Origin: Candidatus Iainarchaeum sp.
Lineage (GTDB): Archaea; Iainarchaeota; Iainarchaeia; Iainarchaeales; JAGVWC01
Length of the DNA stretch: 64,000 nt
Assembly: GCA_018304465.1 (NCBI GenBank)
Contig: JAGVWC010000011.1
Span: 87,757 to 151,756 of the forward strand
Direction of reading: 5' to 3'
Shown one piece after another: positions 783-37,981 of this stretch. The notes beneath the pieces were generated by a model, which saw nothing but the letters and a program-made list of their open reading frames with translations, was not told the origin of the DNA and ran no database searches. Each line of letters starts with the position of its first letter. The first letter of the stretch is position 1. Made by a program: the position numbers and the translations under genes.

Positions 783-827
783 CATCTCCTTAATTCTATT
801 CTTTTCTTTTTAATTTAGGAAAATTCT

Positions 828-885
828 GCCAAAAGTTATATTTTTCTTGTTCGTTTTTATTTCAGCGGATAAAGATATCTTCCCA
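828..885 (-). repeat. scpA 3'-end copy (downstream half-site)
   Basis: Minus strand reads TGG GAA GAT ATC TTT ATC CGC TGA AAT AAA AAC GAA CAA GAA AAA, matching scpA 9833-9877. Homology stops at the TGG codon. Confidence 0.9.
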
Positions 886-918
886 CAACGTTGCGTTTAT
901 TACAAAAAAAGAATTTTT

Positions 919-1323
919 TCAATCTGATGAAACAATTTCAAAGGCCAATAAATACTCGTCGTTTATTTTAAGCGCATATTTTCCATTGGCACCCGCTAAA
1001 CCAACCGTACGGGTATAATATTCAGTCCATCCATCAAAACGCGAATCCAACTTCTGCCATCCAAGCTGGTTTAGATCTTGGCTCAAGAGAGTATTTGGGT
1101 ATTCAACAAACTCGAATTGATTCAGAGTGATTTGGGTTTTTGTCAGAACATGCAATTCATCGAACGATTCAAAACTTGAACACCGGAAATTAAAATCGGG
1201 TGGAAGACTAGCTACATTGCATTGTAATACCGGCTTATTTGCCCAAAATGGCTTCTCTCCCACACACCCCATCAACAGGAGCCCCCCTACCAGGAGGATA
1301 CAAACCAAAGAAAGATGTTTCAT
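919..1323 (-). CDS. Hypothetical secreted/lipoprotein (putative cassette cargo)
   Basis: 134-aa ORF with hydrophobic N-terminus ending LLMGC; flanked by scpA-end repeats. Confidence 0.7.
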   Translation of the reverse strand: MKHLSLVCILLVGGLLLMGCVGEKPFWANKPVLQCNVASLPPDFNFRCSSFESFDELHVLTKTQITLNQFEFVEYPNTLLSQDLNQLGWQKLDSRFDGWTEYYTRTVGLAGANGKYALKINDEYLLAFEIVSSD

Positions 1324-1374
1324 GTTTCAAATACAATTAGAAAGAATAAAAATGTTCCTACAACGCATTTGTTT

Positions 1375-1390
1375 TGGCAAGAACAATTTC
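1375..1390 (+). repeat. Inverted scpA upstream half-site (WQEQF)
   Basis: TGGCAAGAACAATTTC is the exact reverse complement of 9174-9189. Confidence 0.6.
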
Positions 1391-1435
1391 CTTTTTCACG
1401 AATTCCACAAAATAAGTTTAATTGCTGTTCTCTTG

Positions 1436-1468
1436 CGTTTTGTTCGAGCGGATGAAAATATCTTCCCA
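1436..1468 (-). repeat. scpA 3'-end copy (downstream half-site)
   Basis: Minus strand TGG GAA GAT ATT TTC ATC CGC TCG AAC AAA = WEDIFIRSNK. Confidence 0.85.
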
Positions 1469-1512
1469 AATTAACGAGTCTATTTTTAAAAGAAATTTTG
1501 TTTGGATCGGTT

Positions 1513-2664
1513 TCAATTCGGAAGCGACAAATCCCATTCTATTTTTTGATTCCCCGTAAAATCATCCGTATCGGGATGCGCGGCCCAAGAGTCATTCAAT
1601 GATCCGTTCAATCTCCCGGATTCGGTCCAGGTTCCCTCGATGAACGCCAGAGTTATTCCCAGTGGTTCGTCGTACGATTGGGCGGTTTCTTCGCAGCCTT
1701 CTTCGTTGGTCTGGGTCACGGTAACGTGCACCATGACCGCTTTGTCCACGATGGGTCCCGAATAAGTTCCGTCCGCATAGACGCCGACATATCCATCCTC
1801 ATATCGATCCAATACTTCGCTTCCACTGCCTGTTCGAACCGTCGTAGCGCAGTCGTCCCGGGTCGTTTCCTGAAACTCCCAGGTCAATAATCCGTCAGAC
1901 CAATAATACGTCAAGGCCTCCGGATTCCGATACCCGAAAACAGCATGTTCTTTCAAAGTCCCGCCCAGTATGGATACTCGAAGGAAATGGTTATACGAAT
2001 AATTTCTCGTCGCCCATTCACGGGTGACCCAACTACACTGCAACGGCGCCGAAGCCGCCCGGTTCATGATCTGGGTATTCAACGCGTCCAAATCCGCGGT
2101 ACTTGTCAATTCGGCTAATTCGATCAAACGCCCCTTGCACAGGGTCGAATTCGTTAACACGCCTTCGATATACGCTTTGATCTTATTCTTCACCGCATCC
2201 ATCAATTCCGGGTCCTTGATGCCAAGCGATTCGGCCCACGAAAACGCATCCAACCATGCGCGCGGAGTGGATGCGGGATCCGATAACACGAACCGAACCC
2301 ATTCCTTGATTCGGGCCACTACTTCAGCCGGCAATTCATCCTCCGAGACACCCGCTTCAATCAGGATCCGCATGGCCGCGGACTGCTGTGCGATCGTCGA
2401 AGAACTGCTTTTCATCACGTCTTTGGCGTCTTCGATCTTGGGATCGTTGTCCGCGTCCGGATCCGGTCCCGGATTGTTTCCCAACGGACCCGAATCGTCA
2501 TTCGAATCCGATGCGGGATTATTCGAACCGCTTGGCGGAAAAGTCGCCGCATTTGGACCCGTCGAAGACGGAACCTGGGCACAACCGACAAGCCACACGA
2601 GCAAAAGCACGGCCAACGGCCACACGATCAATCGAAGACGCCTATTCACGGGAAAACCAATCAC
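1513..2664 (-). CDS. Hypothetical lipoprotein-like secreted protein
   Basis: 383-aa ORF with signal ending LVGC, a Pro/Asp/Ser-rich linker, then helical and beta-rich acidic regions. Confidence 0.75.
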   Translation of the reverse strand: MIGFPVNRRLRLIVWPLAVLLLVWLVGCAQVPSSTGPNAATFPPSGSNNPASDSNDDSGPLGNNPGPDPDADNDPKIEDAKDVMKSSSSTIAQQSAAMRILIEAGVSEDELPAEVVARIKEWVRFVLSDPASTPRAWLDAFSWAESLGIKDPELMDAVKNKIKAYIEGVLTNSTLCKGRLIELAELTSTADLDALNTQIMNRAASAPLQCSWVTREWATRNYSYNHFLRVSILGGTLKEHAVFGYRNPEALTYYWSDGLLTWEFQETTRDDCATTVRTGSGSEVLDRYEDGYVGVYADGTYSGPIVDKAVMVHVTVTQTNEEGCEETAQSYDEPLGITLAFIEGTWTESGRLNGSLNDSWAAHPDTDDFTGNQKIEWDLSLPN

Positions 2665-2740
2665 GCTATCAGAATGAATTTTCCTACTATTTATGGATTG
2701 CGTTATGAATCGCTCATTACGCTTCCGTGTCCCATTTCAC

Positions 2741-2764
2741 GAAGAAGTCTTCCCGCGACCGCAC
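2741..2764 (-). repeat. Degenerate scpA-end/arm junction copy
   Basis: GAAGAAGTCTTCCCGCGACCGCAC matches 30371-30394 at 21/24 positions; intergenic. Confidence 0.6.
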
Positions 2765-2869
2765 AAATCCAAACGAGCCGAGGCCATTTTGCAGGGAAAA
2801 GATATACAGTTGTGAAGGCAAAAAAAAGCATATTTTTATGGGAACAAAACCGCCGTAAAACCACGTTTT

Positions 2870-5149
2870 TCAGGGATTCCGTTTCAGGAGAACCCCTGAT
2901 TTGGCTTCCATTGCAATCGAGGAAACCGGCGCGCCCGAAAGCGTATAAAACGTGCCTGCAAGCGAAACCGTTTCGGTCACGGTTCCCGAATTCACGAGCA
3001 CGAGCACGTTTTGGTATTCGCGCTCATACACGCCGACGGTTCCGGAACGCAGGTGATATTCTTCACGCGGCTGCCCCACGTTGGTGTCCCACGCGTCAAA
3101 ATGCACGTAGGTCTGGTAGGGCCCCGGATCCAAACCGAAATGAAAAAACGCGAACCGCTGGTTTCCAAGCAAGAAAGTCGCGAACGAATAGGACGCCACT
3201 TTTTTCATCTGAATGGTATCCGGATCAGAGGGATTGAGCCTATTCGCGTCCGGCAACCGGAGCCGCCCTTGTGCAAGATAAATCCGCGTCTTCGAAATCG
3301 AATTCAGTTCATCCAACTGCTTTTTCCAAGTGGCGCCTGAAAGCCACGAACCAATGGGAGCCGTCCACGGAGACGCGACGAATTGCTCGTCCATTCCCCC
3401 ATCAGTTAAACTCGGAAACGAATCGTCTTCGGTCCAACTGTAAATGATTCCGTTAAAAACAGTGAGCTTGGGCTTGATTGCGGCCCGAACGAACGAAATC
3501 GTATCACTCATGCGCTGGGGCCACGCGTCAATGAAAGCCTGATCCGGTTCGGACAATGCCCGATAACTCACATACACCGTGCTGTAGGGCTCAACCGGAG
3601 TTCCGAGCACGATCTGGTTTTTGGAATAGCTTCCGCCTGCAAAAAAATCGGTTCCGGTTTGGTCCGGATTATCGAACGCCGTGATGTCGTTTTCACACGC
3701 GTAATACGGTTGTGGCGTGTGCAAATTCTCATCCGGCAGATCAATGGTTTTTCCGTCGGATCCGACCGTCTGGGACTCGCTTGAAACCCAGCGGATAAAT
3801 CGGTTGGCGGTCACAATCCGTCCCAGCGCGTTGTCCAGGAATATTCCGTCCAAATTTTGGTTTTTGGAAAGAAGCGCTTTCGAATAATCGGCCAACGCTT
3901 CCCGCCAAGCGGTTTCCGGATTGATGAGATACCCCGTGAAATAACAACGGTGCCGCAGACGGTTTTCGCGAGTAACCGGATGGTTCCGGGCATGGGCAAA
4001 GGCGTTCTCGTTGTCTTTGATCGCGTCCCAGACCTCTTTCACCCAGGTTTCATTCTCGTAAACCGTGTAGGTCTGGGCATACTCGACCACGGGAAGACGG
4101 TTACTGGATTGAGACAACAACTCCGATCCAAATACCAGGCCCCGAATCGAAAAATCCAGTTTGTCAAGCAAAAAATCATGAATTTGCATCGGATCCGTGA
4201 CTTCCGAGACCGTTCCGTCAAGATGAAACCGCTGTACTTTCGTCACATTGTAGGCCGGAAACTGGATTTTGACTATATCGGACTGGCTTGCGATCAGACA
4301 ATCCCACGGGCAATTGTCTGTTCCCTCGCCTTTGCCGCACACCTGGTCCCCGCAGACACCCGCGCAATCCGAAGGACACGTCAACGCGGTTTCGCCGGCT
4401 TCGCACGCGTCGTTTCCGCACGAGTTGCATTGCGAAACATCGAACCCAGAACAATCCGGCTTGCAGGAAAGCGATCCGCCTGCGAAGCCCTGCAATCCAC
4501 AAGTCTGGGAATTCAAGTCGGAAGAATCACAGGATTCGAATCCCTCAATGATTCCGTTTCCGCAGGAGTAGACCGGCGGGGTTTCCAAAATGCATTGTTT
4601 GACATCAAAGCTTCGGCAATCGGACGCACACAACAAGGTTCCGCCTTTAAATCCAAACGACCGGCAGGTAGTGCCGTTTAACTTCTCCTTGTCGCAGACC
4701 TCCGGCGTTTCAATCACCGAATCGCCGCACACGGGCCGTGAACCGCAATCATTCGAATTGCAGACGGGTAAAGCCGGACAATCGACTTTACACGAATTCG
4801 AATTCTCGCCGATTTCTGATTCACACACGCCATTGGCATTGCACACCCAACAATCCAATAAACAATTATTCACGTTCTCGCCGGTTTCACACACCGAATT
4901 CCCGCAAAGGTACTCCGGATTCGACACCGGAAGAACCGGGTCCGGCAAATTTCCGAAAAAATTGGCATCACTGTTTGAGTCGCCTACCGGCAAAGCAGGC
5001 GGTCTTTGAACCGACAGCCCCACCCAAGTGATTCCGATAACAAGAACAACAAACAAGACCAAGGAAACCGTGTTAAGCATTTGATTGATCGGCGCCTTGC
5101 CAGACGGTGTGGACACGAACACAAGATCTTTCGATGCGTCGGATTCCAT
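2870..5149 (-). CDS. Membrane-anchored protein with Cys-rich (CGNxxCExGE) repeats and a C-terminal putative glycoside hydrolase (GHL15-like) domain
   Basis: N-terminal TM helix, repeated CGN/CGD motifs, LDGIFLDNA and GVYEREYQNVLVLVN motifs. Confidence 0.75.
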   Translation of the reverse strand: MESDASKDLVFVSTPSGKAPINQMLNTVSLVLFVVLVIGITWVGLSVQRPPALPVGDSNSDANFFGNLPDPVLPVSNPEYLCGNSVCETGENVNNCLLDCWVCNANGVCESEIGENSNSCKVDCPALPVCNSNDCGSRPVCGDSVIETPEVCDKEKLNGTTCRSFGFKGGTLLCASDCRSFDVKQCILETPPVYSCGNGIIEGFESCDSSDLNSQTCGLQGFAGGSLSCKPDCSGFDVSQCNSCGNDACEAGETALTCPSDCAGVCGDQVCGKGEGTDNCPWDCLIASQSDIVKIQFPAYNVTKVQRFHLDGTVSEVTDPMQIHDFLLDKLDFSIRGLVFGSELLSQSSNRLPVVEYAQTYTVYENETWVKEVWDAIKDNENAFAHARNHPVTRENRLRHRCYFTGYLINPETAWREALADYSKALLSKNQNLDGIFLDNALGRIVTANRFIRWVSSESQTVGSDGKTIDLPDENLHTPQPYYACENDITAFDNPDQTGTDFFAGGSYSKNQIVLGTPVEPYSTVYVSYRALSEPDQAFIDAWPQRMSDTISFVRAAIKPKLTVFNGIIYSWTEDDSFPSLTDGGMDEQFVASPWTAPIGSWLSGATWKKQLDELNSISKTRIYLAQGRLRLPDANRLNPSDPDTIQMKKVASYSFATFLLGNQRFAFFHFGLDPGPYQTYVHFDAWDTNVGQPREEYHLRSGTVGVYEREYQNVLVLVNSGTVTETVSLAGTFYTLSGAPVSSIAMEAKSGVLLKRNP

Positions 5150-5319
5150 GTAGATTAACAAAGAGGATTCGCCAATAAAAAGCTAACTGAAAAAAAGATT
5201 TTTTTTCTATTTGGAAACGCGAAATCCGTTTTTTTTCAAATCCAAAATCACGGAATTTAGCTTCTCGATTATTTTCCCACAGCCCGATGGCAATTCAAAA
5301 CAAAAAAAATAAAAAGATT

Positions 5320-5336
5320 AGAGGCGATTCGCCTCT
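5320..5336. terminator. Hairpin / probable terminator
   Basis: Perfect 7-bp stem AGAGGCG-ATT-CGCCTCT with T-rich tails on both strands, just past the stop of the DUF4382 gene. Confidence 0.5.
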
Positions 5337-5345
5337 TTTTTGACC

Positions 5346-6686
5346 TTACGGAATCGAAATAATGCCGTCGACTCCGATCTCGAGAATGACTTGGGGTCCA
5401 ATGCGCATATCGACACCCATCTCGCCGTCTTCATTCATTCCAACAGCGTGTTTGGTCGTGGTGATTCCACCCACTAAGATCACTTTTTGGCCTTGGGTCA
5501 CCGAAACATCCACTTCGGATTTGGTTTCAACCAAGATAACGGGGGCCAAAATATACTTTCCATTGCCCGTTACATGCAGCGAATCATCCGCATTAAAATC
5601 CAATACCGCAGTGGCCGTCTCGTTTTGGTCCACTTCAAGATTGGCGTCAATTCGCAGTACATTTGACGGAAGCTTCGCGGTTTTGGCCTGGTTATCGACC
5701 GTCAAGTTGACATCGGACACGGATAACCGAATCTGATCATATGTTCCGGCCATCACATTGACATCCGCCATCAATGCGATTGAACTGTCGGCACTCAATG
5801 CGATCAGGTCGAATGTTTGCACCGAAGAAGAAATGGTATTCCACAGGCCTGCATTCGAATCGCGGACTTCCACGCGTGTAACCGTCAGCAAAATACTGGT
5901 TACATTGTTCAAGTCTTTTTTGGCATCCGTGATTCCAATGACCACGCGTCCGTTTCCCCGGCCTTGCGGACCAAGACCAATTCTAATTTTGCCTTGGGCA
6001 TCAATGTCAAGGGCCGTGTCGCGGGGAATGCCGATTCCAACACCCATGTTTCCCTGGATGTCCATTCCGAATTTGGCGTTTGATTTAACAGTTCCGCCTC
6101 GAACTGAAATGGAATTGTTCGAACCTGCTTCAACTGTTGCATTGCTTCGGGTTTCCATTTGAATTACCGGCGCCAGAATATATTTGCCGTTTCCCGTGAC
6201 ATGCAATGATTCGTCAGCCAATACATCCAAAACAACAGTCGAAGTCGAGTTGCTATTGACATCTAATTGCCCCACTAGTTTTAGTTCGTTGGATGGCAAT
6301 TTGGCTTCGGTGGTTCCGGTTTCATCCGTGACCATCACTTTAGAAATCTGCAACCGCAACTGCTGATACGTTCCAGGCTGCAAATTGACATCCGTCAATG
6401 CAACCACCATGGATTGCGACTTTAAGGCCAACAAATCCACTGTTTTGGATGTGGATGATACGGTTACCCAGCCTTTGGATGCACTATGCACTTGAATCTG
6501 ATCAATCGTCACATCGATTTTTGATACGGACTCCATGTTTGCGGCCGCATCCGTGATTCCGATGACTATCCGACCGGTTGAGGCACCACCATTTGGATTC
6601 GACGGGGCACTTGTACAACCAACGAGTAATAGCAGAAGTACTAAGGCCACCATTCCGATTGGAACTGAAAAACGCTTCAAACTCAT
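5346..6686 (-). CDS. Lipoprotein with two tandem DUF4382-like domains
   Basis: Lipobox LVGC; internal duplication GRxVIGITDA...DLxAL...GTYxQxRL...AKLPSN...LHVTGNGKYILAPVI. Confidence 0.85.
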   Translation of the reverse strand: MSLKRFSVPIGMVALVLLLLLVGCTSAPSNPNGGASTGRIVIGITDAAANMESVSKIDVTIDQIQVHSASKGWVTVSSTSKTVDLLALKSQSMVVALTDVNLQPGTYQQLRLQISKVMVTDETGTTEAKLPSNELKLVGQLDVNSNSTSTVVLDVLADESLHVTGNGKYILAPVIQMETRSNATVEAGSNNSISVRGGTVKSNAKFGMDIQGNMGVGIGIPRDTALDIDAQGKIRIGLGPQGRGNGRVVIGITDAKKDLNNVTSILLTVTRVEVRDSNAGLWNTISSSVQTFDLIALSADSSIALMADVNVMAGTYDQIRLSVSDVNLTVDNQAKTAKLPSNVLRIDANLEVDQNETATAVLDFNADDSLHVTGNGKYILAPVILVETKSEVDVSVTQGQKVILVGGITTTKHAVGMNEDGEMGVDMRIGPQVILEIGVDGIISIP

Positions 6687-6771
6687 TCTATCCACCCAAT
6701 AAACATGAGTAATATTTCAATATAAATCAGTTGCTTTTATAGCGATCGGCCATTGTGACGAGTAACAAACC

Positions 6772-6848
6772 CGGCCAAAAGTCTTATTTTTCCTGTTCGT
6801 TTTTATTCCAGTGGATGAAAATATCTTCCCAGAATTGTTCATGCCAAA
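6772..6848 (-). repeat. scpA 3'-end copy (full site)
   Basis: 6784-6848 matches scpA 9830-9894 at 58/65; translates to WHEQFWEDIFIHWNKNEQEK*. Confidence 0.95.
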
Positions 6849-6879
6849 AATGTGTAAATGTGATTGACCACGAAATGAC

Positions 6880-7239
6880 CTATGCTCGTTTTGGGTTTAA
6901 TGCGGATTCCAATTTAGCCCATATTTTTTTGAACTGTTGAGGAGAACAGCTTTTTTGCAATTGCAAACGGAATGATTTCTTGCTGATGACTCCCGAACGG
7001 ATTAACTGGGCTGCAAACCCAATCCTGAATTGCTCGCTCTGAATAATCTTCGGAACAGGGATTGCGTTCGTAGGAATAAACATCGGGCCGACGGGCTGCC
7101 GTTCTCGAATCTGCTTTTTCGCATAGTCGTTCATTCTCCATTTAACGGTATTCACCGTTTTTCTGATTTGGCGTGCAGTACTTGGCCTTCCTCGTGTTGC
7201 CGTTTTCGTTTTCGGCTTTTTTTGTTTTCTCACACTCAT
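6880..7239 (-). CDS. Small Lys/Arg-rich orphan protein (putative cassette cargo)
   Basis: ATG 7239 preceded by GAGGAGG directly abutting the repeat at 7248. Confidence 0.7.
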   Translation of the reverse strand: MSVRKQKKPKTKTATRGRPSTARQIRKTVNTVKWRMNDYAKKQIRERQPVGPMFIPTNAIPVPKIIQSEQFRIGFAAQLIRSGVISKKSFRLQLQKSCSPQQFKKIWAKLESALNPKRA

Positions 7240-7247
7240 TTCCTCCT

Positions 7248-7284
7248 CAGCCAATCGGCTTATTTTTCCTGCTGATTTTTATTC
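7248..7284 (-). repeat. scpA 3'-end copy (truncated)
   Basis: 34/37 identical to 9818-9854; encodes NKNQQEK*. Confidence 0.9.
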
Positions 7285-7320
7285 TTTTGATTTTTGTCAG
7301 CCAAGAAACGTTTTTTGTTG

Positions 7321-7340
7321 TTAGAACTTGCTCTTGTCAC
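7321..7340 (-). repeat. scpA upstream half-site (degenerate)
   Basis: TTAGAACTTGCTCTTGTCAC is 17/20 identical to 9171-9190. Confidence 0.55.
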
Positions 7341-7398
7341 ATTATTTTTAATTGTGCAAAGAAACGATTCTTTCTCCTCTGGATATAACTCAGGGCCC

Positions 7399-8460
7399 CT
7401 ATGCGCTTTGTTTTTGCTTGATAACATCTCGCATTTGGTATAACCGACTTTCAGCAATGCCGGTAATTTCGGTTACACGAGTCGGATGATAACCGCGCCG
7501 CAAGAATTCTTCTGCAATCGTGTCTCGGATGAACTTCAAGGGAATTCTGAGCTGTTTGGCCATTTTTCTCCAATTGAAGCTCATTGGCGTTTTTTTCGGC
7601 ATGAAAACACGAATGATCCGCTTCTTTGCTTTTTTGCTTTCCTGAAATCGTCGGCCAGTAATTCCATGGGCAACTCTGACTTTGGTAGCGGATTGACGAA
7701 TTGCGTTGATGGTGGTCGAGTACCCGTGACGGGATTCGCGTTCGAGTGCTCGCTGTGCAATTCTATCGCGCGGTTCAAAAGTGAGTTTGAATGCTTTTCG
7801 GAGAAATTCTTCTCTCCGCGCCGCATTGGGTATACGCTTTCCTTCGAATGATCTTCGCTCTTGAAGGCTTCGGATTTTTTTGGCGATTCGTGTCACTGTT
7901 TCTAATCCGACAAAGATATGTTGGTCGGCCAATCGACCCGGAATTTCTGTTTCGGTATACTTGAATTTTCCTTCCGGTGTTCGCGCTGAAAGAAGTTTGG
8001 CAACAGCATCCCACGCGTCTTTGCGAACACGAGCCTTGGCAATCTTTTGTCCCACGCTCTTAGTGTTTTTTCGTCCGTGGATTCGATTGTTCATACTTTT
8101 GACTCCCGCAAAGGAGATCCCTGATTTAGCAGCAATCTCCCCAAGAGTCATCTTTCTTCCGCGCAATTTAGATGTAACCCAATCAACGGTCGCTGGTTCC
8201 AATATAGTCTCCAATCGTCGGCTTCTGCCATTGGCCGCAATTCCTTGTTCAATAATTTTCTCCGGAGTCCGTGCACCAGAAAAAACAAGCACTCGTTTCA
8301 CAGCTTGACCAGACGCACGAACTCTCTGCTTAATACTGGAAATTGGTTCTGTGTCGGGCGATTCAAGGATTCGTGAAAATGTCTGAAAAGGCAATCGTCT
8401 ACGCGAGGCCTTTGCATAGTGCGCATACAAGGAAGGTATTTGATGTGAAGGAATCGGCAT
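7399..8460 (-). CDS. Highly basic orphan protein, possible HTH segments
   Basis: About 353 aa, very Arg/Lys-rich; MTLGEIAAKSGISFAGV and PTRVTEITGIAESRLY look HTH-like. Confidence 0.7.
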   Translation of the reverse strand: MPIPSHQIPSLYAHYAKASRRRLPFQTFSRILESPDTEPISSIKQRVRASGQAVKRVLVFSGARTPEKIIEQGIAANGRSRRLETILEPATVDWVTSKLRGRKMTLGEIAAKSGISFAGVKSMNNRIHGRKNTKSVGQKIAKARVRKDAWDAVAKLLSARTPEGKFKYTETEIPGRLADQHIFVGLETVTRIAKKIRSLQERRSFEGKRIPNAARREEFLRKAFKLTFEPRDRIAQRALERESRHGYSTTINAIRQSATKVRVAHGITGRRFQESKKAKKRIIRVFMPKKTPMSFNWRKMAKQLRIPLKFIRDTIAEEFLRRGYHPTRVTEITGIAESRLYQMRDVIKQKQSA

Positions 8461-8516
8461 TTCAAACACACATCATTGTCGAATATAAATCTTGCCATAG
8501 GCACAGTAGTATTTTT

Positions 8517-8646
8517 CTGCTAATCAGCTTTTTTCCTGATTTTTGTTCCAGCGAATAAAGATGTCTTCCCAAAACAAGAACACGCTGCACGACTTTTTCG
8601 ACAAAAAAATAATTAGAATGGCCGAATTTGGTGCCGTAATTTGAAT
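8517..8646 (-). repeat. scpA downstream half-site (8517-8571) joined to the conserved non-scpA arm (8572-8646)
   Basis: Encodes WEDIFIRWNKNQEKS*. 8564-8587 is identical over 24 nt to 29707-29730. Arm blocks are shared with 30395-30459. Confidence 0.9.
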
Positions 8647-8687
8647 AGTTTTTTATACAAGTCGCCGCACTATTAAATAGTGACATA

Positions 8688-8897
8688 ATGGTTAGTAATG
8701 AGCAGATTTTGCAGGGAAAAGCAATCAAAGAATTGGCTGAGGAAGCCGCCCGCGTAAAAGAAGGCTTGAAAGGATACTTAGAAGACTTGGAATTATACTC
8801 GAATCCTGAATTTTGGGAAGCAATCGCCGAAACCAACGAAAACAAAGGCAAAAAATTCGCTTCAACCAAAAAACTCTTCCAAGAGCTCGATAGCTGA
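8688..8897 (+). CDS. Putative antitoxin
   Basis: 69 aa with LEDLELYSNPEFWEAIAE motif; its stop overlaps the toxin start (TGATG). Confidence 0.75.
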   Translation: MVSNEQILQGKAIKELAEEAARVKEGLKGYLEDLELYSNPEFWEAIAETNENKGKKFASTKKLFQELDS

Positions 8898-9145
8898 TGC
8901 CCTACTCTGTTTTTCGATCCGACAGGTTCAAAAAAGAATACAAAAAACTCGACGGTCGCCAACAACAATTAGTGAAAAAGAAAATCGACAAAATCGTCGA
9001 AAACCCCGAAGTCGGAAAACCCTTGCACGCGCCGTTGCAAAACTTCAAAAGCGAACGAATCGAAAACCTGCGAATCGTCTACACGATTGAAGGAACATTG
9101 ATCAAATTCGCTTGGATCGAAGACCGCGGACACGCATACGATTAA
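8897..9145 (+). CDS. RelE/ParE-family toxin
   Basis: FKKEYKKLD...ENPEVGKPLHAPLQNFKSERIENLRIVY...RGHAY. Confidence 0.85.
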   Translation: MPYSVFRSDRFKKEYKKLDGRQQQLVKKKIDKIVENPEVGKPLHAPLQNFKSERIENLRIVYTIEGTLIKFAWIEDRGHAYD

Positions 9146-9170
9146 AATTGTGTATTAAACGCCTTTATCG

Positions 9171-9190
9171 TTAGAAATTGTTCTTGCCAC
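9171..9190 (-). repeat. scpA upstream half-site (WQEQF)
   Basis: 9176-9189 identical to scpA 9879-9892; minus strand TGG CAA GAA CAA TTT then diverges exactly where TGG GAA would follow. Confidence 0.75.
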
Positions 9191-9199
9191 TTTGTGAAC

Positions 9200-9817
9200 T
9201 TACAAGTTTGGATTATTTCTCGCATCATAAAAAAACATGCTTGTCATCACCACGGAGTGAAAAATGTCATGCCTAATTTGAAACTCCAACAGTTCTTCAA
9301 AAGTTGGATTATTTTTTTGATCCCACCGGTCTTCGTTTGAAGGGTCAAAAAATAAGCCCATTTTACTGATGACGCCTTTGATTCTTGCATCTTCTACATT
9401 GCTGATTTTTTGGGCAAGCTCTCGGATTTGCCAATGAACGGGTTGGTCCATCGAAAAATCTCTCGGATTTCGGGAGAACCAGTCTATCATTCGATTAAAT
9501 GCGTCGGAAGCTTCAGGGGTGACTTTGGATCTCACTTGCTCTTTAAGCGATCCGGCAATGATTGGAATAATTTGTTCAATCGCTCTTGCGGTTCCCGTTT
9601 GTGTTCTTTCAGATCCGACGCCATGCGATAACACAATTCGAAGCGACCTGGCTACAATGGATTTTTCCATCGGATTTTTAACCATCGTGGCCAACGGTTT
9701 CCACCCCTTCTTGCGAGCAGCCAGATACGCCTTTTGATGAGCAACATACTGTGGAGTTTTTCGTTGCGGCAAGTTCAACACCACTAAAAAAGCATTCAAA
9801 CCAATTAAAATAATCAT
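9200..9817 (-). CDS. Orphan protein with basic N-terminal region (first cargo downstream of scpA)
   Basis: 205-aa ORF starting immediately after the scpA post-stop motif; true start may be a downstream TTG. Confidence 0.65.
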   Translation of the reverse strand: MIILIGLNAFLVVLNLPQRKTPQYVAHQKAYLAARKKGWKPLATMVKNPMEKSIVARSLRIVLSHGVGSERTQTGTARAIEQIIPIIAGSLKEQVRSKVTPEASDAFNRMIDWFSRNPRDFSMDQPVHWQIRELAQKISNVEDARIKGVISKMGLFFDPSNEDRWDQKNNPTFEELLEFQIRHDIFHSVVMTSMFFYDARNNPNL

Positions 9818-9829
9818 CAGCCAAACGTC

Positions 9830-10636
9830 TTATTTTTCCTGTTGATTTTTATTCCAGCGAATAAAGATATCTTCCCAGAATTGTTCTTGCCAAATCATGA
9901 TTTGGTTTCGATTGGCCAAAAACAACAATGGAATAAAATTGTTCACGACTTCGATGGGGTCGTTTTTGTGTTCGGCGGTTAACTGCGAAAACAACACGAG
10001 TCCCTGCGAATCCGCGCGCGCTTTGATCTTGTTCAACACATCCGCCATTTTTTCTTCAATGTTAAAACTCGGGTCCGGCATCACGAAGCGCAGTTCCTCG
10101 AGTTTTTTGGCAAACCGCGACTGCGTCGAGGATTTGGCCAGCATGGTTTCAATGGTTTGCACCAGTGAATCAAGCGTAACGGGTCCTTCGCGCATCATGC
10201 GGGTTCCGCGTAACTCCGGGATCTGGGCGGCAAGCAACGCGCGTTCTTCCGGCGACAATTCTTTTTCCTTTAATTCGTCTTCCAGTTCTTCAAGACTTGT
10301 CAAACGCAGGGTTTTCGCTTTGTGTTTAAGCAAAATCGCGGTCGCCAAAATCGCGTTGGCGGGCACGCGCAGATTCGACCGTTCCAACAAATTTATTTTG
10401 GACAAATACAAATCCGCCAAGCGAATCACGTCAATGTTCCACGGATCCATTTTTTCGGCTTTCACGATATCAAGCAAAATCGTTTTCCAAGCCGGCTGGT
10501 CAATCAAGTCCACCAAATATTCATGCGTCACTTCTTCGGGCAACGCGTATTCGATCAACTGTTCCGAATCCGCCTCTTCTTTTTGATGCGATTCCACGGT
10601 GCTTTCGGTTACATCCGGTTTTTTTTTGGGAGACAT
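9830..10636 (-). CDS. scpA: Segregation and condensation protein A (kleisin)
   Basis: MDPWNIDVIRLADLYL, ANAILATAILLKHKA, PVTLDSLV, FIPLLFLAN...QEQFWEDIFI motifs. Confidence 0.9.
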   Translation of the reverse strand: MSPKKKPDVTESTVESHQKEEADSEQLIEYALPEEVTHEYLVDLIDQPAWKTILLDIVKAEKMDPWNIDVIRLADLYLSKINLLERSNLRVPANAILATAILLKHKAKTLRLTSLEELEDELKEKELSPEERALLAAQIPELRGTRMMREGPVTLDSLVQTIETMLAKSSTQSRFAKKLEELRFVMPDPSFNIEEKMADVLNKIKARADSQGLVLFSQLTAEHKNDPIEVVNNFIPLLFLANRNQIMIWQEQFWEDIFIRWNKNQQEK

Positions 10637-10807
10637 ACGATACCAAATAAGGCTTTAAAAAGAATATAAATCAGGGGGTTTCCCACGTTTTATGTAGACT
10701 AAAAGGGCTTTTTTGAAATGCGAAAACCAGTTTCCAGAACCAATGACCACAAACGGATCGTGATTGAAAACCCCTTGTCGCCGCCAACAGCAAATAAAAA
10801 CCTCTTA

Positions 10808-12388
10808 TTATTTTGGAATCCTTTTTTTCATCCGGTTTTTGCGATAAACGTTCGCGAACCGATGCGCTTCGTCGCGAAGATTGGTTAACACGCGTAACCC
10901 GGGGCTGCTTCGATCAAGAGCGATCGCTGTACTGCGAATCGGAACGAATATTTCCTCGTTTCTTTTCGCTAACCCGATGACCGGAAGAGACAAATTCATT
11001 TTTCGGAATACCATAAGCGCCGTGGACAACTGGCCTTTTCCACCGTCCACGACCACCAAATCCGGCAACGGCAAGTCTTTGGACAAGCTTCCGCCGTACC
11101 GGCGGTCCAACACTTCAAACATCGCGGCATAATCGTCTCCCGGTTGCGCCGTCAAAATCCTGAATTTTCGATAATTCGCCTTGTTGGGTTTTCCGTTTTC
11201 AAACACCACCATGGACGCCACGGTTTCGGACCCGCCCATATGTGAAATATCAAAGCATTCAATGCGCTTAGGGGTCTTGGGCAAAAACAGCCTCGTTTTC
11301 AGTTCCACCAATGGATCCGCCGTCGGATTCAACGCGTATTCCAGGTTTTTTTTGGCGATATCCAGCATTCGCTTGGCATCCGCCGAGGGATTCCAACGCA
11401 CCGCTACCGGATAACCGGCCGAATCGGACAAGACAATCATGATTTCATCGGCGCGCGCGATCGGCTCCGACAAAACGATTTCATGCGGCGGAACGTTTTG
11501 CGAATAATACTCAAGCAAAAAATCCTCGACGATATCCGTCGAAACAAGCTTTGAATCAAACGAAAAAAGTTTTTTTCCAAGCAACGTTCCGCGACGAAAC
11601 GGCAGCACCAGCAAGCGAACGCCGTCCTCCGTTTTTTTGAACGCGATGAAATCCTGGTTTTTGTTTTTGAACGTGTCCACGACTTGCTTTTCCATTTTTC
11701 CTTTCAATGTCTCGATGGCCTCGCGTTTCTGCAACGCCAATTCGAAATTCTGGCTTTTGGCCAGCAATTTCATTTCTTCTTCCAGAATCGAAATCAAGGT
11801 TTCGCGTTTTCCCGAAAAAAAATCCGCGGCTTTTTCAACCTGAACGGCGTACTCTTCGCGCGAAACGTTTTGGATGCAAGGCGCCGTGCATTGTCCCATA
11901 TAAAATTTCAAACACGCTTTTTTCGGAAGGGTTTTACAGGTTCGGATCCTGAAAGTTTTTTCGACCATGTCAATCATGGTGTGGCGCGCAGAACCGTCCA
12001 CAAACGGACCGAAAACCAGGTCTTTTGGGTCAAGGTTTTTTTTGGGTTCTCGCACCACCACAATCTTTGAGAACGGTTCGTTCGTGACTTTGACGTACGG
12101 ATAACGATAGGAATCCTTCAAATCGACGTTGTATTTTCCCTTGAATTTCTTGATCAAATTCGATTCCAAAATCAAGGCTTCGGTTTCATTCGACGTAATG
12201 ATGAATTCAATATCTGCGATCTGCTCCACCAATTGCATGGTTTTCGAATCATGTTTTTTGTTGTTAAAATAACTCGAAATGCGATTTTTGAGGTCCTTGG
12301 CTTTGCCAACGTAAATCACGGTCGCCAAAGCGTCTTTCATGAGGTAAACGCCGGGCGAATGAGGGGCAAGCGAAACAAAAGAAGGCAT
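10808..12388 (-). CDS. uvrC: Excinuclease ABC subunit C (no C-terminal HhH)
   Basis: GIY-YIG PGVYLMKD...YVGKAKDL, RIECFDISH, PDLVVVDGGKGQ, LRDEAHRFA; likely start ATG 12388. Confidence 0.95.
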   Translation of the reverse strand: MPSFVSLAPHSPGVYLMKDALATVIYVGKAKDLKNRISSYFNNKKHDSKTMQLVEQIADIEFIITSNETEALILESNLIKKFKGKYNVDLKDSYRYPYVKVTNEPFSKIVVVREPKKNLDPKDLVFGPFVDGSARHTMIDMVEKTFRIRTCKTLPKKACLKFYMGQCTAPCIQNVSREEYAVQVEKAADFFSGKRETLISILEEEMKLLAKSQNFELALQKREAIETLKGKMEKQVVDTFKNKNQDFIAFKKTEDGVRLLVLPFRRGTLLGKKLFSFDSKLVSTDIVEDFLLEYYSQNVPPHEIVLSEPIARADEIMIVLSDSAGYPVAVRWNPSADAKRMLDIAKKNLEYALNPTADPLVELKTRLFLPKTPKRIECFDISHMGGSETVASMVVFENGKPNKANYRKFRILTAQPGDDYAAMFEVLDRRYGGSLSKDLPLPDLVVVDGGKGQLSTALMVFRKMNLSLPVIGLAKRNEEIFVPIRSTAIALDRSSPGLRVLTNLRDEAHRFANVYRKNRMKKRIPK

Positions 12389-12473
12389 GAAGTAATTATG
12401 TACAAGACTTTTTTTAAGGTATTCGACCACCAAAACGAATAATAAGAAAAAAAAACCATTTGAATCGGGAAAA

Positions 12474-29695: not shown

Positions 29696-29730
29696 GGATG
29701 AAAATATCTTCCCAAAACAAGAACACGCTG
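29696..29730 (-). repeat. scpA downstream half-site (short) plus start of the arm
   Basis: Minus strand TGG GAA GAT ATT TTC ATC (WEDIFI); 24-nt identity with 8564-8587. Confidence 0.85.
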
Positions 29731-29767
29731 TTTGATTTTCAGGCGGAAAAAATGCTGGAATTGGCTG

Positions 29768-30025
29768 TCAAAACTGGGTATACACTTTTTTCCGGTGTTC
29801 GATCCGCAGGACAATTATTTTTTTTGTTGCTGGAAATTTTTGGACAATTACCCGATAATGCCCCACACGAACCTTTTGGTATGGCGTTCCTTTTACGGCC
29901 TCGAGAAAAACGGAATCTTCTTTTTCAAATAATTCCATCTTGTCGAGAATTCGACGAGTAAGTTCTTTTTCAAGGGACTCAAGATCTTTCTTTGCGCGGT
30001 TCGTCCAAACAAGTGTGAAAGGCAT
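29768..30025 (-). CDS. RelE-family toxin
   Basis: WTNRAKKDLESL...KVRVGHYRVI...IEHRKKVY. Confidence 0.9.
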   Translation of the reverse strand: MPFTLVWTNRAKKDLESLEKELTRRILDKMELFEKEDSVFLEAVKGTPYQKVRVGHYRVIVQKFPATKKIIVLRIEHRKKVYTQF

Positions 30026-30274
30026 TCATAAACCCAGTTCTTTGCGTAATTGCTTGGAAGAAAACACGCGTCCGTGCCGCAGGTCTTTTTTAGCCTCTTC
30101 AATCCCCCTCAAGGTTTCCGAACTCAATTCGAACTCGGCCTCTTCATCTTCACGTATGCGACTTAATAATTTCTCAATCACATCCGCGTAGGTTTCACGC
30201 TCGTTTTCCTTGAATGCATCCAAATCCTTCTTTACTTTAACCGGGATCTGAATAGTCGAATTATCAGCCATCAT
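30026..30274 (-). CDS. Putative antitoxin (RHH-like)
   Basis: STIQI...ETYADVIEKLL...IEEAKKDLRHGRVFS; abuts the toxin start. Confidence 0.8.
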   Translation of the reverse strand: MMADNSTIQIPVKVKKDLDAFKENERETYADVIEKLLSRIREDEEAEFELSSETLRGIEEAKKDLRHGRVFSSKQLRKELGL

Positions 30275-30353
30275 AACACCTTATAGTATATTACAAACAA
30301 CTATAATAAAAGACGTTTCTTTCGATGATTGTGGAAATATCTTTTTGCCGCAG

Positions 30354-30459
30354 GTTTTGTTCCAGCGGATGAAGATGTCTTCCCACGACCGCTCCACGCT
30401 GCACGGTTTATCGACGGTTTTCTAAAGAAGACTGGCCGAGAACTTCGCCCGTTTTGAAT
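30354..30459 (-). repeat. scpA downstream half-site (30354-30385) plus conserved arm
   Basis: TGG GAA GAC ATC TTC ATC CGC TGG AAC AAA = WEDIFIRWNK, with 4 changes, all synonymous; arm homologous to 8581-8646. Confidence 0.9.
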
Positions 30460-30500
30460 TCGCCGGAACCTTTTTTAATTATAGGAACTCCGTATATACA

Positions 30501-31682
30501 ATGCCCGCACGAAATCGTCGCATACAACGAGTCCAAGCGGAAACCAATCGTGTGATGGACTCTGCCTTTGGAAATCCGCAGCACCGAGGAATAACACGTA
30601 GGCAACGCCTGGGAGAACTGCGCAACCAAGCCGCCCGTTATGCAAAACATGCGCCCGTCCAATTTGCAGCCCGACAAATCGTTAAACACCTCAGCCGCGC
30701 GCAAACTACGTTTGAAGGCCATTCAAAGATCACTCCTATCCAAAGCGCTTCTGTTTTTTACGGGGGTCAAAACATCCGGTTCGGAAAAGCGATTCGGGAA
30801 CACTTTCGAAAACGCAGGATCACCGCTCGATCCATGCAGCTAGATTCAAAACGATCTCCCACCAGCACAGTTGAGAATCGGCGCATCGACGCATTATCAC
30901 GAGCAAACGCGGTTGTATTTGCAGCGAATGGTCCCGCCAGCAAGCTTGATGGCCCCGTAGACCGGATTGTGAATAGTGTGGAGCGGCGATACGGAAAAAA
31001 AAGCGGTACTCGTCTTGCGCTGATGTACGGCATTACACCGCAAGCAGTCCGAGAAGTGCTATCCCTAAACTCCAAACGCATGCATGAATTCACACGGCGG
31101 ACTTTTCAAGCGGTACACGGATGCAAAACCATCCAAGTCCGGTCTTCCAGCGGGACCAACATGACTTTTTCGATTACTCCCCGACATCGCTGGGTTCAAG
31201 ATAACGCTATTCTCTCTAAAAACTATTGGGGAAACCTGCCCGCAGGAGAAGTATTCACCGCGCCCGCTTCCGCCAACGGAAACCTTGTGATCGATGCCGT
31301 GATGAACAACGTTGGCGACTGTCATAAAACGCCCATCACTGTGCAAATCCGAAACGGTCGCGCGATCCCTCAAACCGCACGGTGCAAGAACCCGCGACTG
31401 CTCAGAAAGTTTCTTGCCCAAATCCATGCGGAACCCAACGCGGACCGCATCGGCGAACTTGGTTTAGGGACCAATGTGGCGGTGACCAAACTCACCGGTA
31501 ACGATTTGGTGGATGAAAAGCATGTGGGCGTGCACGTGGCGTTTGGAGACCCCGAAGGCGCAGACACGGGGGCCACATGGACGACGGCAGAAGGCACTCA
31601 TAACGATGCGATTCTGCGAAAACCCAGCATATTTGTGGATGGGCGCTGCATCATGCGAAACGGAAAAAGTCTACTGATGTAA
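30501..31682 (+). CDS. M29 (aminopeptidase T-like) metallopeptidase with Arg-rich N-terminal extension
   Basis: NLPAGEVFTAP, IGELGLGTN, DEKHVGVHVAFG, HNDAI. Confidence 0.85.
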   Translation: MPARNRRIQRVQAETNRVMDSAFGNPQHRGITRRQRLGELRNQAARYAKHAPVQFAARQIVKHLSRAQTTFEGHSKITPIQSASVFYGGQNIRFGKAIREHFRKRRITARSMQLDSKRSPTSTVENRRIDALSRANAVVFAANGPASKLDGPVDRIVNSVERRYGKKSGTRLALMYGITPQAVREVLSLNSKRMHEFTRRTFQAVHGCKTIQVRSSSGTNMTFSITPRHRWVQDNAILSKNYWGNLPAGEVFTAPASANGNLVIDAVMNNVGDCHKTPITVQIRNGRAIPQTARCKNPRLLRKFLAQIHAEPNADRIGELGLGTNVAVTKLTGNDLVDEKHVGVHVAFGDPEGADTGATWTTAEGTHNDAILRKPSIFVDGRCIMRNGKSLLM

Positions 31683-31697
31683 AACTCATGGCTGTCA

Positions 31698-31771
31698 CAG
31701 CCAATCAGCTTATTTTTCCTACTCGTTTTTATTCCAGCGAATAAAGATATCTTCCCAGAATTGTTCTTGCC
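31698..31771 (-). repeat. scpA 3'-end copy (full site)
   Basis: 31710-31771 matches scpA 9830-9891 at 58/62, including a 46-nt perfect run. Confidence 0.97.
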
Positions 31772-37966: not shown

Positions 37967-37981
37967 AAAAGAAAAATCCCT

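What the first reader, a model, noticed from the sequence alone, without database searches (positions are those of the whole stretch)
828..9894. Integron-like single-gene cassette array built at the 3' end of scpA, each cargo gene delimited by a copy of the scpA C-terminus
SEEN: the last codons of scpA plus about 12 nt after the stop (9818-9894) recur in the same orientation at 828-885, 1436-1468, 2741-2764 (degenerate), 6772-6848, 7248-7284 and 8517-8571. That is almost every spacer between the unrelated accessory genes downstream of scpA (lipoproteins, a glycosidase-like surface protein, basic orphans, a TA pair). All cargo except the TA pair is co-oriented with scpA. No integrase or transposase is visible in the window. 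KNOWN: integrative elements that target the 3' end of a coding gene carry a replacement 3' end in attP and displace the old end to their distal side. Integron arrays are single-gene cassettes, often with TA modules, mobilised by one recombinase. INFERENCE: small non-autonomous cassettes were inserted repeatedly at an attachment site inside scpA by a recombinase acting in trans. I know of no description of such a system, but could not search for one.
Basis: partly seen in the sequence, partly recalled or inferred. Interest (0 to 1): 0.92.

Follow-up and report, generated by a model that had tools for sequence, protein, structure and literature searches.

The report
Gene cassettes stacked behind archaeal scpA
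In a small-genome DPANN archaeon, mobile DNA has inserted again and again at one spot near the end of the chromosome-segregation gene scpA, each time giving the gene a new end and pushing the old end downstream; this is a known way of building gene islands, seen here with a new target gene and unusually small inserts.

Summary
The repeats are real. A profile search finds 14 copies in the 1.25 Mb genome, at five loci and not only at scpA. Differences among copies fall mainly on third codon positions of the ScpA frame, so each copy once served as a coding ScpA end. Six related archaea also carry displaced scpA ends just downstream of scpA. In four relatives a tyrosine integrase gene lies directly after scpA, once with a primase-helicase and once with a terminase. 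In one relative an integrase is preceded by a free-standing scpA tail. The array is therefore best read as tandem accretion at an attB in the codons for the last conserved ScpA motif (WEDIFI here, GEIFI in relatives). The cassettes here carry no integrase, and the genome has no close homologue of the scpA-linked integrases. Mobilisation in trans is plausible but not shown. The units show no integron features: no IntI, no attC-like fold. Tandem accretion with integrase-less members is already described in bacteria, and 3'-end targeting in archaea. New here are the target, the host group, sub-kilobase cassettes and secondary arrays.

The parts
9830..10636 (-). scpA (kleisin of the SMC complex), intact, 268 aa
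   Evidence: ORF; Pfam SMC_ScpA 3.9e-16; only full scpA in the genome (tblastn)
9818..9894 (-). att copy 0: present 3' end of scpA (WQEQFWEDIFIRWNKNQQEK*, plus about 12 nt); 18-nt core at 9860-9877
8578..9817 (-). cassette 1: 205-aa orphan (9200-9817, -), ParE-like toxin with upstream small ORF (8688-9145, +), conserved non-scpA arm 'ext' at 8574-8657
   Evidence: ParE_toxin; ext shared with C15 12771-12887, 75% over 121 nt
8520..8577 (-). att copy 1 (type B: ext + core 8554-8571 + tail WEDIFIRWNKNQEKS*)
   Evidence: E 2.5e-13
7285..8519 (-). cassette 2: basic 356-aa orphan (7399-8469); paralogues at C15 5137-6185 (beside an integrase gene; broken) and C15 238518-239543
   Evidence: family found in 3 of 196 genomes of the order
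7244..7284 (-). att copy 2: tail only, no core
   Evidence: D3, 90% to scpA end; E 0.0035
6849..7243 (-). cassette 3: basic 124-aa orphan (6880-7254); homologue in the C15 array (13503-13859, 67% aa identity)
6772..6848 (-). att copy 3 (type A: scpA-like from WHEQF on; core 6814-6831)
   Evidence: 89% over 75 nt; E 3.8e-18
1473..6771 (-). cassette 4 (three genes, no copy between them): DUF4382 lipoprotein 5346-6695, GHL15-like 763-aa protein 2870-5161, 383-aa lipoprotein-like 1513-2664
1415..1472 (-). att copy 4 (core 1451-1468, diverged tail)
   Evidence: E 1.9e-11
903..1414 (-). cassette 5: 134-aa lipoprotein-like gene (919-1323)
826..902 (-). att copy 5, most distal and decayed (in-frame TGA, stop codon lost); candidate for the oldest or original scpA end
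29696..31771 (-). second array, not next to scpA: copy 31698-31771 (type A); M29 peptidase 30501-31682 (+); copy 30336-30391 with ext to 30439; ParE/antitoxin 29768-30274 (-); junction 29696-29764 with ext and core but no tail

Best explanation
The array is the product of serial site-specific recombination at an attB inside scpA. The crossover region lies in the DNA coding the last conserved ScpA motif (W-E-D-I-F-I here, F-G-E-I-F-I in relatives). Each incoming element carries an attP made of an arm, this core, and a replacement ScpA C-terminus with stop codon and about 12-15 nt. Integration keeps scpA intact and moves the former end to the far side of the insert. Repeated insertion next to scpA stacks the elements, newest nearest the gene. 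The recombinase is a dedicated clade of tyrosine integrases carried by proviruses and integrative plasmids of this archaeal order. The units in this genome (0.4-5.3 kb; 1-3 genes; lipoproteins, a glycosidase-like protein, basic orphans, toxin-antitoxin pairs) have no integrase. I take them to be non-autonomous att-bearing cassettes (CIME- or satellite-like) that were inserted, and could be excised, by such an integrase supplied in trans. Shown: the repeats, their coding-type divergence, use of the same site in relatives, and integrases at that site. Inferred: the crossover position, the order of insertion, and trans-mobilisation.
For: (1) There are 14 copies with E <= 0.0035 in the genome. All 10 on C7 and all 4 on C15 lie on one strand of their contig. 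(2) Of 45 differences from the consensus over the 11 codons WEDIFIRWNKN, 32 are at third positions, 7 at second and 6 at first. That gives 24 synonymous against 14 non-synonymous codon changes, where random change would give 13% synonymous. The most distal copy, 826-902, carries an in-frame stop. (3) The closest relative (L009, 70% ScpA identity) ends FWEDIFIRWNKNEQK*, so the tail is native to ScpA. (4) Displaced, co-oriented scpA ends lie downstream of scpA in L009 (1), L010 (2), L017 (3), L018 (2), L024/L069 (1), L052 (2) and G028 (1). Each has its own tail after a shared core. In the strict scan (<=3 mismatches of 20 nt) of the 47 of 51 loci in which the motif was found, every hit except one palindromic self-hit was downstream on the scpA strand. 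(5) A tyrosine integrase gene starts 32-40 nt after the scpA stop in L018 (530 aa; with a D5-type primase-helicase; about 9.4 kb), G028 (478 aa; 10.7 kb; 18-bp direct repeat) and G091 (481 aa; with a terminase large subunit). In G015 a partial integrase match begins 99 nt after the end of the ScpA match. Of the 30 integrase-homologue loci fetched, only the two best hits are next to scpA. The third best (G015:C10) has a free-standing FGEIFISTVKE* tail about 165 nt upstream of the integrase. (6) Integrase-less inserts at the same site recur in relatives. L010 has two cassettes of about 0.7 kb, one of them HicB/HicA. L069 has a 2.6-kb island. L018 has a 475-bp one-gene cassette whose arm next to the core matches that of the integrase element beside it. 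(7) Five junctions here share a conserved non-scpA arm of 45-85 nt next to the core, in three different arrays.
Against: No integrase with this specificity was found in this genome. The L018 integrase gives no match at E <= 1e-8. The best local relative is 29% identical over 154 aa. No scpA-type tail lies within 1.5 kb of the three local non-Xer integrase genes. The genome is 92% complete. No excised circle, empty site or cassette gain or loss in a same-species strain was seen, and the laid contigs gave nothing decisive. Four loci with copies are not at scpA and lack any scpA 5' part, which simple accretion at scpA does not explain. One junction (7244-7284) lacks the core. Cassette 4 holds three genes with no copy between them. 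Two junction types (A and B) with different left limits imply either two element families or a crossover position that I have not fixed.
Confidence: 0.55

Rival explanations
1. Decay in place. Each cassette is what is left of a full-length integrase-bearing provirus or plasmid that integrated at scpA and then lost its integrase and replication genes by deletion. The units were never mobile as small cassettes.
For: Full elements of 9-11 kb use the site in relatives. The 356-aa basic cargo protein has a broken paralogue 1 kb from an integrase gene on C15. In L069 the tail and the first nucleotides after the stop match the integrase-proximal arm of the G091 and G028 elements, but the integrase is absent. 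The review PMC8371274 (passage read) notes integrase loss after integration in archaeal elements.
Against: Deletion would have to spare both junctions every time and leave tidy inserts of 0.4-0.7 kb with one gene or one operon, independently in several lineages (this genome, L010, L018). Five junctions in three arrays keep the same 45-85-nt arm next to the core.
Confidence: 0.28
2. The host XerA recombinase does the work, as for bacterial IMEX elements at dif. The scpA end would double as a Xer site, and integrase-less DNA would exploit it.
For: The genome encodes a Xer-like recombinase (C6 162321-164450; Phage_integrase 120.7 bits, SAM-like N-domain). The cassettes lack integrases. The core holds a 10-bp palindrome in copies that read GATATC (sequence).
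Against: Elements at this site in four relatives bring their own integrase placed right at the junction, which Xer-exploiting elements do not need. The palindrome is lost in copies with synonymous changes. No archaeal dif model was available to test.
Confidence: 0.06
3. A true integron: single-stranded attC-type sites recombined by an IntI-type integrase at an attI in scpA.
For: Arrays of small, mostly co-oriented cassettes with toxin-antitoxin modules.
Against: No integrase beside scpA; uvrC lies upstream. The units fold no better than shuffles as single-stranded DNA on either strand: z -0.34 to +0.70 for 6 sequences. The sites are conserved in sequence and in reading frame, not in structure.
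Confidence: 0.01
4. No site-specific recombination: the copies arose by segmental duplication, homologous recombination or misassembly.
For: Repeats break short-read assemblies: contigs of four runs end at several copies.
Against: An independent contig, L008, spans the scpA junction, and other contigs bridge five copies. The flanking cargo is unrelated between copies. The same pattern with lineage-specific sequence occurs in six relatives.
Confidence: 0.03

Closest known systems
Tandem accretion of ICEs and cis-mobilizable elements (CIMEs) at the 3' end of fda in Streptococcus thermophilus (ICESt1 family; Pavlovic et al. 2004). Seen only as a citation in PMC3146451 and in the listing of PMC7563491; the fda and ICESt1 details are recalled.
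   Same: Target is the 3' end of a protein-coding gene. Direct repeats of that end bound each unit. Some units lack recombination genes yet keep both att sites. Growth is by repeated site-specific insertion.
   Different: Bacterial and conjugative, with units of many kb. Here the host is a DPANN archaeon, the target is scpA, the units go down to about 0.4-0.7 kb, and no conjugation genes were seen.
Dehalococcoides ssrA-specific genomic islands (PMC3146451; passages read)
   Same: A small streamlined genome. Many tandem islands lie downstream of one essential single-copy gene, each bounded by a direct repeat of its 3' end. A short conserved motif lies next to the repeat. 15 islands have no integration module and are discussed as CIMEs.
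   Different: The target is the tmRNA gene, the repeat is 20 bp, the recombinase is a serine recombinase (CcrB-like), and the islands are larger. All those repeats lie within 100 kb downstream of ssrA, whereas copies here also occur at unrelated loci.
Archaeal integrated elements in 3'-distal regions of protein genes (Thaumarchaeota; PMC6563490, passages read) and the review of archaeal tyrosine recombinases (PMC8371274, section 19 and passages read)
   Same: Tyrosine-integrase elements insert in the 3' end of protein genes and supply a new stop codon. Arrays arise by re-use of one site.
   Different: scpA is not named as a target in the passages I read; the list of targets was cut off in my view, and supplementary Table S2 was not seen. 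No arrays of single-gene integrase-less cassettes are described there.
Tycheposons of Prochlorococcus (preprint 10.1101/2020.12.28.424599; passages read)
   Same: Successive integrations at one site push older elements further into an island. Partial target copies and degraded elements are scattered through the island. Cargo is adaptive.
   Different: Targets are tRNA genes, the hosts are bacteria, and the elements usually carry their integrase.
Integrons
   Same: An array of small cassettes, often with toxin-antitoxin genes, at one docking site.
   Different: No IntI, no attI with Pc beside an integrase, and no folded attC. The sites here are double-strand-type att sites that double as coding sequence.

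Membership tests
Integrative elements with a tyrosine integrase that target the 3' end of a gene | Direct repeats of the target's 3' end bound the inserted DNA, in the orientation of the gene | tested here: met
   Six copies downstream of scpA, all on the scpA strand
Integrative elements with a tyrosine integrase that target the 3' end of a gene | The element restores the target gene with its own version of the 3' end | tested here: met
   scpA is intact. Copies differ mostly synonymously. Proximal and distal tails differ after a shared core in L018, G028, L010 and L052. A free tail lies in front of an integrase in G015:C10.
Integrative elements with a tyrosine integrase that target the 3' end of a gene | An integrase gene lies inside the element, usually next to one junction | tested here: not met
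   None in the window or at any of the five loci with copies. Met in relatives L018, G028, G091 and G015.
Integrative elements with a tyrosine integrase that target the 3' end of a gene | An empty site exists in close relatives | tested here: inconclusive
   No same-species genome is held. 0 of 40 relatives match the repeat at DNA level, apart from one 25-nt hit. Most scpA loci of other genera show no displaced end within the DNA held, but these are distant.
Cis-mobilizable elements / satellites moved in trans | Both att sites are kept but no recombinase is present | tested here: met
Cis-mobilizable elements / satellites moved in trans | Excision or integration when the integrase is supplied | not testable with these tools
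   Laid contigs cannot show rare circles. A single weak joint, 6831->8638 (20 nt on one side), probably comes from another locus.
Integron | An IntI-type integrase gene beside attI, with promoter Pc | tested here: not met
   uvrC lies upstream of scpA and there is no PF00589 match in the window. Pc was not tested.
Integron | attC sites that fold as imperfect hairpins in single-stranded DNA | tested here: not met
   z-scores from -0.34 to +0.70 against 200 shuffles each, 6 sequences, both strands
IMEX (elements exploiting Xer at dif) | The site is the chromosome dimer resolution site bound by Xer | not tested
   No archaeal dif model was at hand. Dedicated integrases at the site in relatives argue against it.

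The most novel reading that the evidence does not exclude
A working cassette system in DPANN archaea. Sub-kilobase units, each one gene or one toxin-antitoxin operon plus a compact attP (arm, core, ScpA tail), would be captured, shuffled and released in trans by scpA-specific tyrosine integrases of passing proviruses and plasmids. They could also seed secondary arrays elsewhere in the chromosome. This would be a functional analogue of integrons built from ordinary double-strand att sites that double as the coding end of the kleisin gene.
Probability: 0.3. Interest if true: 0.8.

Novelty: new variant of a known kind. Interest (0 to 1): 0.55.

Why it matters
DPANN archaea have very small genomes, and little is known about how they gain genes. 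This locus shows a hotspot at which surface proteins and toxin-antitoxin modules pile up. The comparison with relatives identifies a previously undescribed pairing of target and recombinase: the scpA 3' end and a clade of tyrosine integrases found on a provirus and on integrative plasmids. I found no paper on it in three full-text searches. Each insertion rewrites the last residues of the kleisin ScpA. The site sits exactly where conservation of the protein ends, which illustrates how elements pick targets that are conserved yet tolerant. If the small cassettes prove mobile in trans, this would be a simple archaeal counterpart of cassette capture. The integrases would also be candidates for site-specific tools in organisms that have no genetics.

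Tried and rejected
- **Repeat in relatives by DNA.** 0 of 40 relatives gave a real match; one 25-nt hit had E 4.7e-4. The genome is the only member of its genus among those held, so no same-species comparison was possible.
- **Viral contigs.** A pattern for core plus tail gave 0 matches. The L018 integrase gave no locus.
- **Reads.** Only Logan contigs were available. They reproduce the window in pieces. One joint, 6831->8638, has only 20 nt on one side and fits the C15 12742-12887 junction as well, so I do not count it as an excision product.
- **'No support' items.** No circle, no empty site and no deleted form was seen. This is not evidence of absence.
- **Single-strand folding of the units.** No signal.
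- **GC profile.** 41-53% across the array, with no clear foreign signature.
- **PHROGs on five cargo proteins.** 0 families.
- **Extra copies of the non-scpA arm elsewhere in the genome.** None beyond the arrays.
- **Local integrases as the cognate enzyme.** Int C7, Int C15 and the broken C13 gene are only 22-29% identical to the L018 integrase and have no scpA tail nearby.
- **A second scpA or scpA pseudogene next to the other arrays.** Not found. The apparent 59-aa match at C15 15064-14888 runs through a stop codon and rests on the tail alone.
- **Unexplained.** How copies reached four loci without an scpA body. Why junction 29696 has arm and core but no tail while 31698 carries the longer scpA-like left part. 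Why G091 shows no distal copy.
- **Supplementary tables** of PMC6563490 (list of target genes) were not seen and might name scpA.

Full report
**What is there**

The window is G000:C7:87757-151756 of a 1.25 Mb, 15-contig genome that is 92% complete. Relatives found with its ScpA are labelled Iainarchaeum, Diapherotrites or Micrarchaeota MAGs, so this is a DPANN archaeon.

scpA is 9830-10636 on the minus strand (Pfam SMC_ScpA), with uvrC upstream. The last about 20 codons of scpA plus about 12 nt recur downstream on the same strand at five places: 8520-8577, 7244-7284, 6772-6848, 1415-1472 and 826-902.

An nhmmer profile built from the copies finds 14 copies in the whole genome at E <= 0.0035. 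The next hit has E 0.43. Between the copies lie nine genes:
- a 205-aa orphan and a ParE-like pair;
- a basic 356-aa orphan;
- a basic 124-aa orphan;
- three larger genes: DUF4382, a GHL15-like protein and a 383-aa lipoprotein-like protein;
- a 134-aa lipoprotein-like gene.

**The copies were once coding ends**

Over the 11 codons WEDIFIRWNKN, the 12 full copies differ from their consensus at 45 positions. Of these, 32 are third codon positions, 7 second and 6 first. By codon, 24 changes are synonymous and 14 are not, while random change would give 13% synonymous. The copies are related to each other, so these counts are not independent events, but the direction is clear.

The closest relative, L009 (70% identical ScpA), ends FWEDIFIRWNKNEQK*, so this tail belongs to ScpA. 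The copy furthest from scpA (826-902) has an in-frame stop and has lost its stop codon, as expected for the oldest displaced end.

**Two kinds of junction**

In type A junctions (6772-6848, 31698-31771, C15 14871-14948), similarity to scpA begins about 15 nt before the core. In type B junctions it begins at the W codon of WEDIFI. There it is preceded by a conserved stretch of 45-85 nt that is not scpA. This stretch is shared by 8574-8657, 30392-30439, 29720-29764, C15 12803-12887 and C15 13958-14011.

I read this stretch as the arm of an attP. An internal junction of a stacked array should have the form arm(new)-core-tail(old), which is what is seen.

**Relatives**

I fetched 74 scpA loci (39 metagenomic, 35 genomic) and tested 51 that had usable sequence downstream.

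A strict scan used the 20 nt from the motif with <=3 mismatches on both strands. It hit only downstream on the scpA strand, in L010, L017, L018 and L024/L069. The one exception was a palindromic self-hit in L015.

A looser scan (21 nt, <=5 mismatches) and my own profile added L009, L052 and further copies in L017 and L018. Its background was 15 hits in 1.19 Mb of control sequence, against 20 hits in 0.38 Mb downstream.

In each lineage the copies share the core and then diverge into different in-frame tails. In L018, for example, the proximal tail is FGEIFISVVNP* and the distal tails are FGEIFISVINHQEN* and FGEIFISLLEKVKQQ*. The common denominator across lineages is the DNA coding (F/W)xGEIFI or WEDIFI, the last conserved motif of the protein. 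After it the ScpA tails vary freely in length and sequence.

**The recombinase**

In L018 a 530-aa tyrosine integrase (Phage_integrase, 57.9 bits) starts 32 nt after the scpA stop. It is followed by wHTH genes and a D5-type primase-helicase. The first displaced end lies about 9.4 kb downstream.

Homologues of this integrase occur in 103 of 196 genomes of the order at E <= 1e-8. Of the 30 best loci fetched, only the two best (G091:C3 and G028:C8) have scpA directly upstream on the same strand.
- G028 carries a 10.7-kb insert ending in an 18-bp repeat and a displaced tail FGEIFISLVSGETR*.
- G091 carries a terminase large subunit, so it is a provirus. I found no distal copy there.
- The third best hit, G015:C10, has a 23-codon open frame ending FGEIFISTVKE* about 165 nt upstream of the integrase and no scpA body. 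That is an attP, or an internal junction of a tandem.
- In the same genome, scpA (C5 36860-37540) is followed by an integrase fragment at 37639-38481, where the contig ends.

So the three best hits, plus a further partial hit in G015, are tied to scpA ends.

**Small integrase-less inserts recur**

- L010 has two cassettes of about 0.7 kb between displaced ends. One is HicB/HicA by Pfam. The other is two small ORFs without a family.
- L052 has two inserts, one of them carrying a nucleotidyltransferase/HEPN pair.
- L069 has a 2.6-kb island with a Fic protein. Its tail and the first nucleotides after the stop resemble the integrase-proximal arm of G091 and G028.
- L009 has a 2.8-kb island.
- In L018, a 475-bp unit with one 71-aa gene lies between two junctions. 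Both junctions carry the same roughly 20-nt arm next to the core as the end of the integrase element.

This last case is the best evidence that mini-units use the att arms of an autonomous element.

**What does not fit**

This genome has no close homologue of the scpA-linked integrases. It has a Xer-like recombinase interrupted by an intein, two other integrases (C7 680-2038, C15 2593-4077) and a broken one on C13. None of the non-Xer ones has an scpA tail nearby.

Copies also occur at four loci that are not at scpA:
- window 29696-31771, with two cassettes: a ParE pair and an M29 peptidase;
- C15 12742-14948, with a methyltransferase and a homologue of the 124-aa basic protein plus HicA;
- a solo copy at C15 104691-104754, in front of a 629-aa lipoprotein-like gene;
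- a solo copy at C7 9985-10042, beside a ParE-like pair.

None of these loci has an scpA 5' part. The junction at 29696 has arm and core but no tail, as expected for the far end of an insertion into a secondary site. The near end at 31698 carries the longer scpA-like left part, which that model does not predict. I leave this open. Secondary attachment sites with tandem integration are reported for SGI1 (PMC2297512, abstract listing only). In G041, the genome of L069, the scpA end recurs only at scpA.

**Comparison with what is known**

Integration of archaeal elements into 3'-distal regions of protein genes (14 of 68 thaumarchaeal elements), with element-supplied stop codons and re-use of one site, is described in PMC6563490 (passages read). 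It is summarised in PMC8371274 (section 19 read).

Tandem islands bounded by repeats of the 3' end of one essential gene are described for Dehalococcoides ssrA in PMC3146451 (passages read). That paper reports a conserved motif beside the repeat and 15 islands without any integration module, which it interprets as cis-mobilizable elements. It cites the accretion model of Pavlovic et al. 2004.

Tycheposons show successive integrations that push older elements inward (preprint 10.1101/2020.12.28.424599, passages read).

The mechanism is therefore of a known kind. Three full-text searches found no report of scpA as a target or of such arrays in DPANN archaea. One archaeal provirus preprint has no mention of scpA. 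Integron membership fails on the integrase and on attC folding.

**Verdict**

The core of the interpretation, repeated site-specific insertion at scpA with replacement ends, is well supported by comparative evidence. The trans-mobilised cassette idea is plausible and unproven. The integron label and the claim of no precedent are not supported.

I rate this a new variant of a known kind, of moderate interest. My confidence is 0.55 that non-autonomous cassettes were accreted by an integrase supplied in trans, and 0.28 that they are decayed full elements. Together that is about 0.83 for tyrosine-integrase accretion at scpA. The remaining rivals are 0.06 for Xer, 0.01 for an integron and 0.03 for no site-specific recombination, which leaves 0.07 unassigned.

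Noticed in passing
G000 contig C6 162321-164450 (-), outside the window: The Xer-like tyrosine recombinase (SAM-like N-domain plus catalytic domain) is interrupted, just after its HSMRH motif, by an intein with a LAGLIDADG homing endonuclease. Pfam: Phage_integrase 120.7 bits in two stretches, Intein_splicing 52.2, LAGLIDADG_3 64.0.
   Followed up: partly
window 29696-31771: A second small array of the same repeat sits among core-like genes, 19 kb upstream of scpA. It holds three junctions, a ParE/antitoxin pair and an M29 peptidase. The far junction has arm and core but no ScpA tail.
   Followed up: partly
L001 (G000:C15) 12742-14948, and C15 104691-104754, C7 9985-10042: A third array (methyltransferase; homologue of the 124-aa basic protein; HicA pair) begins right after the stop of a double wHTH gene. 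Two solo copies lie beside a 629-aa lipoprotein-like gene and a ParE-like pair.
   Followed up: partly
window 2870-5161 (residues about 247-300 of the 763-aa protein) and many contig ends: A roughly 50-aa Cys-rich segment of the GHL15-like protein matches sequences within a few hundred bases of the ends of contigs C4, C7, C9, C10, C12, C13 and C14. This suggests a multi-copy surface-protein family that breaks the assembly.
   Followed up: no
L114 (G091:C3) about 5097-15000 in locus coordinates: A provirus-like insert sits directly after scpA: a tyrosine integrase (481 aa) and a terminase large subunit (Terminase_6N and 6C). No distal scpA copy was found.
   Followed up: partly
L069 13564-15936 (-): A 790-aa ORF downstream of the scpA island looks by eye like a purine-synthesis ATP-grasp enzyme interrupted by an intein. 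It was not scanned against Pfam.
   Followed up: no
window 7399-8469; G000:C15 5137-6185 and 238518-239543: The basic 356-aa orphan forms a small family with three copies in this genome, one of them broken and 1 kb from an integrase gene. It was found in only 3 of 196 genomes of the order. It has no Pfam or PHROG match.
   Followed up: partly
L017 10669-17000: The scpA-linked array of this relative repeats whole gene sets: two copies of a 127/138-aa Zn-finger-like ORF, three PIN-like ORFs by eye, and two ParE-like ORFs. This suggests duplicated or related cassettes within one array.
   Followed up: no
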